Below, one piece after another: positions 19,522 to 21,063 of a stretch of DNA of 64,000 nt. The stretch lies in the NCBI RefSeq assembly GCF_009931435.1, contig NZ_CP043414.1, one strand, 5' to 3'. The translations under genes and the position numbers were made by a program. The stretch's first letter is position 1, and each line of letters starts with the position of its first letter. The notes under the pieces were generated by a model that did no database searches, was not told where the DNA came from, and saw nothing but the letters and a program-made list of their open reading frames with translations. Origin of the DNA: Escherichia coli. GTDB lineage: Bacteria > Pseudomonadota > Gammaproteobacteria > Enterobacterales > Enterobacteriaceae.

Positions 19522-21063
<1,542 letters not shown>

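What the first reader, a model, noticed from the sequence alone, without database searches (positions are those of the whole stretch)
20961..20990. The two 16S copies differ in helix V1 by a compensatory base-pair swap, and both differ from the K-12 V1 sequence
rrsE reads (rRNA sense) GGAATCAGCTTGCTGATTCGCTGAC, whereas rrsB (61340-61369) reads GGAAGCAGCTTGCTGCTTTGCTGAC. There are three differences: a paired T/A versus G/C swap that preserves the stem, plus a C versus T that changes G-C to G-U. K-12, as I recall it, has GGAAGAAGCTTGCTTCTTTGCTGAC. This is real intragenomic 16S microheterogeneity, or a mis-assembly of repeat copies, and it marks the strain as non-K-12. It matters for amplicon-variant interpretation.
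Basis: seen in the sequence. Interest (0 to 1): 0.4.

Follow-up and report, generated by a model that had tools for sequence, protein, structure and literature searches.

The report
Ordinary 16S V1 variation between operons
The two 16S rRNA genes in this window do differ by three bases in one small hairpin, in a way that keeps the hairpin paired, but this kind of copy-to-copy variation is routine and long documented in E. coli.

Summary
The rrsE-type 16S (19522-21063, minus strand) and the rrsB-type 16S (59901-61442, minus strand) are both 1542 nt. They differ only at positions 79 (U/G), 90 (A/C) and 93 (C/U).

In the Rfam bacterial SSU model, 79 pairs with 90 and 76 pairs with 93. The change is therefore U:A versus G:C, plus G:C versus G:U, in the helix 6 hairpin.

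Neither allele occurs in any of the seven K-12 copies. However, K-12 itself carries three V1 alleles that vary at the same pairs.

Among 5,426 complete E. coli genomes:
- The rrsB-type allele occurs 5,979 times, in 1,806 genomes.
- The rrsE-type allele occurs 479 times, in 241 genomes.
- Both are usually mixed with other alleles in the same genome.

The window's closest relatives are 98.7-99.1% identical to it. One of them is a published cryptic clade I genome. All four relatives checked carry the rrsE allele at rrsE, but they carry three different alleles at rrsB.

Best explanation: this is real, pair-preserving polymorphism, moved between copies by short-patch gene conversion or recombination. 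An assembly artefact is unlikely but cannot be excluded without reads.

Verdict: already known, low interest.

The parts
19522..21063 (-). 16S rRNA gene of the rrnE-type operon (flanked by yjaA and purH)
   Evidence: Rfam RF00177, 1579 bits, full length. Synteny with annotated relatives and K-12.
20958..21003 (-). Helix 6 (V1, the 'spur') of rrsE, 16S positions 61-106. The terminal hairpin 76-82/87-93 lies at 20971-20988.
   Evidence: Rfam structure line. Minimum-energy fold -12.9 kcal/mol.
20971..20985 (-). The three variable bases in rrsE: U79 (20985), A90 (20974), C93 (20971)
   Evidence: Base-by-base comparison.
59901..61442 (-). 16S rRNA gene of the rrnB-type operon (flanked by murB and murI)
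   Evidence: Rfam RF00177, 1578 bits. Synteny.
61337..61382 (-). Helix 6 (V1) of rrsB, 16S positions 61-106. The terminal hairpin lies at 61350-61367.
   Evidence: Same register as rrsE. Minimum-energy fold -12.0 kcal/mol.
61350..61364 (-). The three variable bases in rrsB: G79 (61364), C90 (61353), U93 (61350)
   Evidence: Base-by-base comparison.
21064..21210 (-). rrnE leader next to the 16S. It is identical to the rrnB leader up to 21209. The first operon-specific base is at 21210, 225 nt from position 79.
   Evidence: Alignment of the two operons.
61443..61589 (-). rrnB leader next to the 16S. The first operon-specific base is at 61589. Window 61400-61699 is identical to relatives that carry a different V1.
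16052..21063 (-). Whole rrnE-type operon: 16S, tRNA-Glu (19361-19436), 23S (16263-19167), 5S (16052-16167)
56345..61442 (-). Whole rrnB-type operon: 16S, tRNA-Glu (59654-59729), 23S (56556-59460), 5S (56345-56460)

Best explanation
This is genuine allelic variation between two of the genome's rRNA operons, confined to the terminal hairpin of 16S helix 6 (variable region V1, the 'spur' of the 30S body). The hairpin tolerates sequence change as long as pairing is kept. E. coli populations therefore carry several alternative, fully paired versions of pairs 79:90 (G:C, A:U, U:A), 80:89 (C:G, A:U) and 76:93 (G:C, G:U). These versions move between operons and between strains by short-patch gene conversion or homologous recombination. 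Homogenisation is incomplete, so most genomes hold a mixture. In this lineage U79:A90/C93 is the resident allele at rrsE. The V1 patch of rrsB has been replaced recently by the common G79:C90/U93 allele. Shown here: the differences, their pairing, the population frequencies, and the allele turnover at rrsB among relatives. Inferred: gene conversion as the mechanism, the direction of the change, and its neutrality.
For: The three differences are the only ones in 1542 nt.

The Rfam structure pairs 79:90 and 76:93. Five natural alleles give the same hairpin (-9.8 to -14.9 kcal/mol), while artificial U79/C90 and G79/A90 hybrids lose it. All cells of the natural alleles are paired, and two pairs show changes on both sides.

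K-12's own seven copies vary at the same positions, with three alleles.

Exact 81-nt allele counts in 5,426 complete E. coli genomes (37,903 copies):
- GA/TC/T: 12,908 copies in 3,432 genomes.
- AC/GT/C: 7,807 copies in 3,569 genomes.
- GC/GC/T, the window rrsB allele: 5,979 copies in 1,806 genomes, median 3 per genome.
- GC/GC/C: 5,615 copies in 2,584 genomes.
- TC/GA/C, the window rrsE allele: 479 copies in 241 genomes, median 1, maximum 7 per genome.
The genome counts add up to more than twice the number of genomes, so mixtures are the norm.

Four independently assembled relatives (98.7-99.1% identical) all have the TC/GA/C allele at rrsE. At rrsB, two carry T:A and two carry A:T, against G:C in the window.

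The V1 patch in rrsB is an island. Compared with 2017-02-2CC and 2020CK-00188 there are no mismatches in 60900-61299 or in 61400-61599.

The long and short ITS1 forms also swap between rrnB and rrnE among the relatives.

Literature: Cilia 1996 as quoted by Espejo and Plaza 2018 (PMC6002687) describes conversions over short domains in E. coli. Schloss 2021 (PMC8386465) reports a median of 5 distinct 16S variants per E. coli genome. Callahan 2019 (PMC6765137) recovered E. coli intragenomic alleles in integer ratios. Martinez-Murcia et al. 1999 (PMID 10319482) is on V1 and V6 of the E. coli 16S family, by its title as cited; the text was not available.
Against: No reads are available, so the phasing in this particular assembly is not verified. 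The source genome is not in the searched collections: the best match is 99.1% and there was no hit among species representatives. Its other five rrs copies, and therefore a within-genome donor for the rrsB allele, are unknown. G:C to U:A needs transversions on both sides and has no wobble intermediate, so the origin of the U:A allele itself is not explained by simple stepwise change. Neutrality of the alleles is assumed, not tested.
Confidence: 0.86

Rival explanations
1. Assembly artefact. The rRNA repeats were collapsed or mis-phased, and the two V1 versions do not really sit at rrsB and rrsE (or only one version exists in the genome).
For: rRNA operons are about 5-kb near-identical repeats. 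The two operons here are 99.97% identical over 3.4 kb, which short-read assemblers cannot always resolve. No reads could be inspected.
Against: V1 lies at the edge of the repeat. The first operon-specific base is only 225 nt upstream of position 79, so ordinary read pairs can phase it. Both versions are coherent, fully paired natural alleles found hundreds to thousands of times elsewhere, not chimeras such as U79/C90. The rrsE allele sits at rrsE in four independent assemblies of relatives. Even under mis-phasing, two alleles would still have to exist in the genome.
Confidence: 0.07
2. Alternative origin, if the difference is real: the rrsB V1 patch came from another strain or species by homologous recombination, not from a sister operon in the same genome.
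For: The window is a recombination mosaic; identity to relatives swings between 95% and 100% per kb. The rrsB allele's 30-mer is shared with species representatives of Siccibacter, Kosakonia, Citrobacter, Cedecea and Klebsiella. The btuB gene 1.3 kb upstream is a very divergent allele.
Against: The rrnB leader (61400-61699) between V1 and murI is identical to clade I relatives. The divergent btuB segment starts only near 62750, so V1 was not carried in with it. The tract needed is short and lies inside sequence shared by all operons, which is the classic setting for conversion within a genome. The other five copies could not be examined.
Confidence: 0.25
3. Functional specialisation. The rrsB and rrsE V1 versions make ribosomes with different properties, as reported for rrsH in K-12.
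For: Kurylo et al. 2018 (PMC6312700) report that the variant 16S rrsH alters stress-response gene expression. The rrsE allele is conserved at rrsE in all four relatives examined.
Against: The changes preserve pairing in a peripheral helix described as having little sequence conservation among functional 16S variants (PMC10269663). The same alleles occur at different operons in different strains; for example, the hits at about 228 kb in strain 536 and ECONIH2 would be rrsH if those records start where K-12's does, whereas 2013C-4282 has the allele at rrsE. One relative carries a single allele in all seven copies.
Confidence: 0.03

Closest known systems
V1 heterogeneity among the seven rrs genes of E. 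coli K-12 MG1655
   Same: The same hairpin and the same positions vary (79, 80, 89, 90, 93), and pairing is always kept: G79:C90 in rrsB/E/A/H/G versus A79:U90 in rrsC/D; A80:U89 versus C80:G89; G76:U93 versus G76:C93.
   Different: The window's two alleles (U79:A90/C93 and G79:C90 with C80:G89/U93) are not among K-12's three. U:A at 79:90 is the rarest of the five alleles counted, at 1.3% of copies.
Sequence variation in V1 and V6 of the E. coli 16S multigene family (Martinez-Murcia, Anton and Rodriguez-Valera 1999, Int J Syst Bacteriol 49:601; Cilia et al. 1996)
   Same: Copy-to-copy differences clustered in short variable domains and spread by conversion over short tracts (Cilia 1996, quoted in PMC6002687).
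   Different: The 1999 paper could not be read here. Whether it lists the U79:A90 allele is unknown. The relevance of that paper rests on its title and on my own knowledge.
Compensatory base changes in rRNA helices (the basis of comparative structure models)
   Same: A double change keeps a Watson-Crick pair, and a single transition switches G:C to G:U.
   Different: Here the covariation is seen between paralogous copies within one genome and between close strains, not between species.
rrsH variant 16S of K-12 (Kurylo et al. 2018, PMC6312700)
   Same: An operon-specific 16S variant within one E. coli genome.
   Different: In the K-12 copies compared here, rrsH differs from the other six at positions 1002-1038 and at 1120, not in V1. 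A phenotype was reported for rrsH. No functional evidence exists for the V1 alleles here. Both window copies carry the common 1002-1038 form.

Membership tests
Bacterial SSU rRNA (Rfam RF00177) | Full-length match to the covariance model above the gathering score | tested here: met
   1579.2 and 1577.6 bits against a gathering score of 50, model positions 1-1533.
rrnE and rrnB operons of E. coli | Chromosomal flanks (purH upstream and yjaA downstream; murI upstream and murB downstream) and a tRNA-Glu spacer | tested here: met
   tRNA-Glu in both spacers. Same gene order as K-12 and as four annotated relatives.
Compensatory base-pair change in 16S helix 6 | The two changed positions pair with each other in the accepted secondary structure | tested here: met
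   The Rfam structure line pairs GAAUCAG (76-82) with CUGAUUC (87-93).
Compensatory base-pair change in 16S helix 6 | Both versions form a standard pair, and single-sided hybrids would not | tested here: met
   U:A versus G:C. All natural alleles are 100% paired. Hybrids lose the hairpin and about 3-4 kcal/mol relative to the two window alleles (-8.8 versus -12.0 and -12.9).
Known intragenomic 16S heterogeneity of E. coli | More than one 16S allele within one genome, at sites that also vary in other E. coli genomes | tested here: met
   Two alleles in the window. The same sites vary among K-12 copies. Five alleles are spread over 5,426 genomes, with more than two alleles per genome on average.
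Known intragenomic 16S heterogeneity of E. coli | Alleles confirmed at the read level in this genome | not testable with these tools
   No reads are available, and the source genome is not in the collections.
Assembly artefact of repeated rRNA operons | Variant combinations that are chimeric or unknown in independent genomes | tested here: not met
   Both haplotypes are exact matches to alleles in 241 and 1,806 other genomes. The rrsE allele is at rrsE in four relatives.
Escherichia cryptic clade I (lineage of the source genome) | Closest relatives are recognised clade I genomes, with lower identity to E. coli sensu stricto | tested here: inconclusive
   The best matches, at 98.7-99.1%, include 2013C-4282, which Okuno et al. 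2023 list as clade I. All other genomes are at or below 97.4%, and K-12 is at 97.1%. This rests on a 25-35 kb stretch, not on whole-genome ANI or the clade-specific marker.

The most novel reading that the evidence does not exclude
The helix 6 alleles are not neutral. Operon-specific V1 versions, such as U79:A90 fixed at rrsE in this lineage, could give ribosome subpopulations with different assembly or translation behaviour, as claimed for rrsH. Alternatively, the rare U79:A90 allele could be a usable amplicon marker for cryptic clade I and a few other lineages.
Probability: 0.04. Interest if true: 0.45.

Novelty: already known. Interest (0 to 1): 0.1.

Why it matters
The practical point is known but worth keeping in mind: one E. 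coli cell yields several V1 or full-length 16S sequence variants. Exact-variant analyses therefore split one genome into several 'taxa', and the set of alleles can serve as a strain fingerprint (PMC8386465, PMC6765137). For this window, the alleles and the flanking DNA show that the strain is not K-12 and probably belongs to the clade I sister lineage of E. coli. Nothing here changes what is understood about rRNA evolution.

Tried and rejected
1. I first took strain 2020CK-00188 to be the source, because purH-purD matched at about 100%. I built a seven-copy table on that basis. Comparing the whole window showed only 98.9% identity, so that table describes a relative, not the source. It was redone with correct labels.

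2. I looked for the source genome. The best match among 5,426 complete E. coli genomes is 99.1%. The rrsE-allele 30-mer has no hit among 100,044 species-representative genomes, so the source is not there either. Its other five rrs copies could not be examined.

3. I tested whether the rrsB V1 patch came in together with the very divergent btuB-murI segment upstream. This was rejected: the rrnB leader 61400-61699 is identical to relatives, and the strong divergence starts only near 62750.

4. I tried to read Martinez-Murcia et al. 1999 by PubMed id. It is not held, so only its citation is used.

None of these affected the results.

Full report
**What is in the sequence**

Rfam finds two complete rRNA operons on the minus strand:
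- Operon 1: 16S 19522-21063, 23S 16263-19167, 5S 16052-16167.
- Operon 2: 16S 59901-61442, 23S 56556-59460, 5S 56345-56460.

Each operon has a tRNA-Glu in the spacer. The first lies between yjaA and purH and the second between murB and murI. This is the same order as K-12 rrnE and rrnB and as four annotated relatives.

The stated coordinates hold the quoted sequences in reverse complement. The two 16S genes are both 1542 nt and differ at exactly three positions:
- Position 79: T versus G (window 20985 / 61364).
- Position 90: A versus C (window 20974 / 61353).
- Position 93: C versus T (window 20971 / 61350).

Elsewhere in the mature rRNAs there is a single 23S difference. The spacers and leaders differ more. 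Three random differences would fall this close together with a probability of about 3.5e-4.

**Structure**

The Rfam SSU consensus structure pairs GAAUCAG (76-82) with CUGAUUC (87-93) around a CUUG loop. So 79 pairs with 90, and 76 pairs with 93.
- rrsE has U79:A90 and G76:C93.
- rrsB has G79:C90 and G76:U93.

Minimum-energy folds of positions 61-106 give the same hairpin for the two window alleles and for the three K-12 alleles (-9.8 to -14.9 kcal/mol). Artificial hybrids (U79 with C90, G79 with A90) lose the hairpin and fold at only -8.8 kcal/mol. On an alignment of the five natural alleles, every cell of the structure is a standard pair, and two pairs show changes on both sides. Versions of the structure slid by one to three columns pair in 27-68% of cells.

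**Comparison with K-12**

I fetched all seven K-12 MG1655 rrs genes and compared them:
- rrsG has GGAAGCAGCTTGCTGCTTCGCTGAC.
- rrsC and rrsD have GGAAACAGCTTGCTGTTTCGCTGAC.

K-12 therefore has three V1 alleles, which differ at the same pairs (79:90, 80:89, 76:93). Neither window allele equals any of them. The window rrsB allele is one base (position 93) from K-12 rrsG. The unique DNA between the two operons is 97.1% identical to K-12.

**Which genome is this?**

The purH-purD stretch matched strain 2020CK-00188 at about 100%, and I first took that strain to be the source. Across 43 kb the identity is only 98.9%, so that was wrong.

For window 24001-49000, the best of 5,426 complete E. coli genomes reaches 99.1%. 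About 18 genomes lie at 98.7-99.1%, and all others are at or below 97.4%. One of the close group, 2013C-4282, is listed as a complete cryptic clade I genome by Okuno et al. 2023 (PMC10100065). The window therefore probably comes from that sister lineage of E. coli. This rests on a limited stretch of DNA, not on genome-wide ANI.

The source genome itself is not in the collections. The rrsE-allele 30-mer, which the window contains, has no hit among the species-representative genomes.

**How common are the alleles?**

I searched the 81 nt spanning 16S positions 45-125 with an E-value limit that passes only perfect matches. A perfect match gives E = 6e-34 and one mismatch gives 3e-32. The 5,426 genomes hold 37,903 16S copies.

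| V1 allele (bases at 79,80 / 89,90 / 93) | Copies | Genomes |
|---|---|---|
| GA/TC/T (K-12 rrsB type) | 12,908 | 3,432 |
| AC/GT/C (K-12 rrsC/D type) | 7,807 | 3,569 |
| GC/GC/T (window rrsB) | 5,979 | 1,806 (median 3 per genome) |
| GC/GC/C (K-12 rrsG type) | 5,615 | 2,584 |
| TC/GA/C (window rrsE) | 479 | 241 (median 1, maximum 7 per genome) |

These five alleles cover 86.5% of all copies. The genome counts sum to more than twice the number of genomes, so a mixture of V1 alleles within one genome is the rule. Both window alleles are established natural alleles; the rrsE one is the rarest.

Among species representatives of other genera, the rrsB allele's 30-mer occurs in Siccibacter, Kosakonia, Citrobacter amalonaticus, Cedecea and Klebsiella indica. 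The rrsE allele's 30-mer occurs in none.

**Relatives, operon by operon**

All four relatives checked carry TC/GA/C at rrsE. At rrsB:
- 2020CK-00188 and 2017-02-2CC have T79:A90.
- 2013C-4282 and WL297 have A79:U90.
- The window has G79:C90/U93.

So three different Watson-Crick pairs occupy the same helix position at the same operon in genomes about 99% identical. 2020CK-00188 has the TC/GA/C allele in all seven copies. Independently, 2013C-4282 has that allele exactly once, and it sits next to purH.

The long (171 nt) and short (85 nt) forms of the 16S to tRNA-Glu spacer also swap between rrnB and rrnE among these genomes. This points to active exchange between operons.

**Size of the exchanged patch**

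Compared with 2017-02-2CC and 2020CK-00188, the window's rrnB region has no mismatches in 60900-61299, three at V1, and none in 61400-61599. Within the window, the two operons are identical from the 16S start to 146 nt upstream. The first operon-specific base is at 21210 / 61589.

The V1 difference is therefore an isolated short patch inside sequence shared by all operons. This is what short-tract gene conversion produces. It matches the conclusion of Cilia et al. 1996 for E. coli and Salmonella, as quoted in Espejo and Plaza 2018 (PMC6002687).

I tested whether the patch came in with the very divergent btuB-murI segment upstream. It did not: that divergence starts near 62750, and the leader in between matches the relatives. 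Whether the donor was a sister operon or another strain cannot be decided without the other five copies.

**Real or mis-assembled?**

Four points argue against an artefact:
- V1 is at the edge of the repeat, 225 nt from operon-specific sequence, so ordinary paired reads can phase it.
- Both haplotypes are coherent paired alleles, not chimeras.
- Both are found in many independent assemblies.
- The rrsE allele is at rrsE in four relatives.

Without reads this remains an inference. I put the artefact at about 7%.

**Known or new?**

This is known.
- Intragenomic 16S variation in E. coli, concentrated in V1 and V6, has been described since the 1990s (Cilia 1996; Martinez-Murcia et al. 1999, cited but not readable here).
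- Schloss 2021 reports a median of five distinct full-length variants per E. coli genome (PMC8386465).
- Callahan et al. 2019 recovered E. coli alleles in integer ratios and used them to type strains (PMC6765137).
- Helix 6 is described as a peripheral spur with little sequence conservation among functional variants (PMC10269663).

A functional role like that reported for rrsH (PMC6312700) is not excluded, but nothing here supports it.

**Verdict**

Interest is low.

Noticed in passing
window 62617-64000 (-), boundary near 62750: The 3' part of btuB is a very divergent allele. It is 51.5% amino-acid identical to K-12 BtuB residues 154-615 but 93.9% identical to BtuB of E. coli SC418. The best nucleotide identity of window 61700-64000 to any of 5,426 complete E. 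coli genomes is 93.1%, and only 372 genomes cover at least 80% of it. This looks like a second btuB allele class, which may matter for phage and colicin receptor variation.
   Followed up: partly
window about 38612-38640, between rpoC and thiH: K-12's yjaZ gene and most of the adjacent sroH region are absent. Only the first 52 nt and the last 163 nt of the 1,162-nt K-12 interval are present. The relatives also lack an annotated yjaZ.
   Followed up: partly
window 19437-19521 versus 59730-59900: The spacer from 16S to tRNA-Glu is 85 nt in rrnE and 171 nt in rrnB, as in K-12. Among close relatives the long and short forms swap between the two operons; for example, 2013C-4282 has the long form at rrnE and the short form at rrnB.
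   Followed up: partly
window 17760 versus 58053: This is the only difference between the two 23S genes: T versus G on the plus strand, about 23S position 1408.
   Followed up: no
L009, L008 and L003 (2020CK-00188 rrsG, rrsD, rrsA); L012 (K-12 rrsH): A second block of copy-to-copy variation lies at 16S positions 1002-1038 (V6). The alternative form is present in three copies of the relative and in K-12 rrsH. Both window copies carry the common form.
   Followed up: partly
window 21000-26000; 55001-56000: The window is a recombination mosaic. The stretch from purH to zraS is 100% identical to 2020CK-00188, while neighbouring kilobases are 96-99% identical. The murB kilobase is about 95.5% identical to K-12 and to the three relatives aligned there. 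A separate search of window 54300-56330 found a best match of 98.6%, in a goat isolate.
   Followed up: partly
window 19175-19283, 59468-59576, 47274-47335, 32905-33005: Other Rfam matches: StyR-44 between tRNA-Glu and 23S in both operons, 'P26' sRNA at 47274-47335, and the TPP riboswitch upstream of thiC.
   Followed up: no
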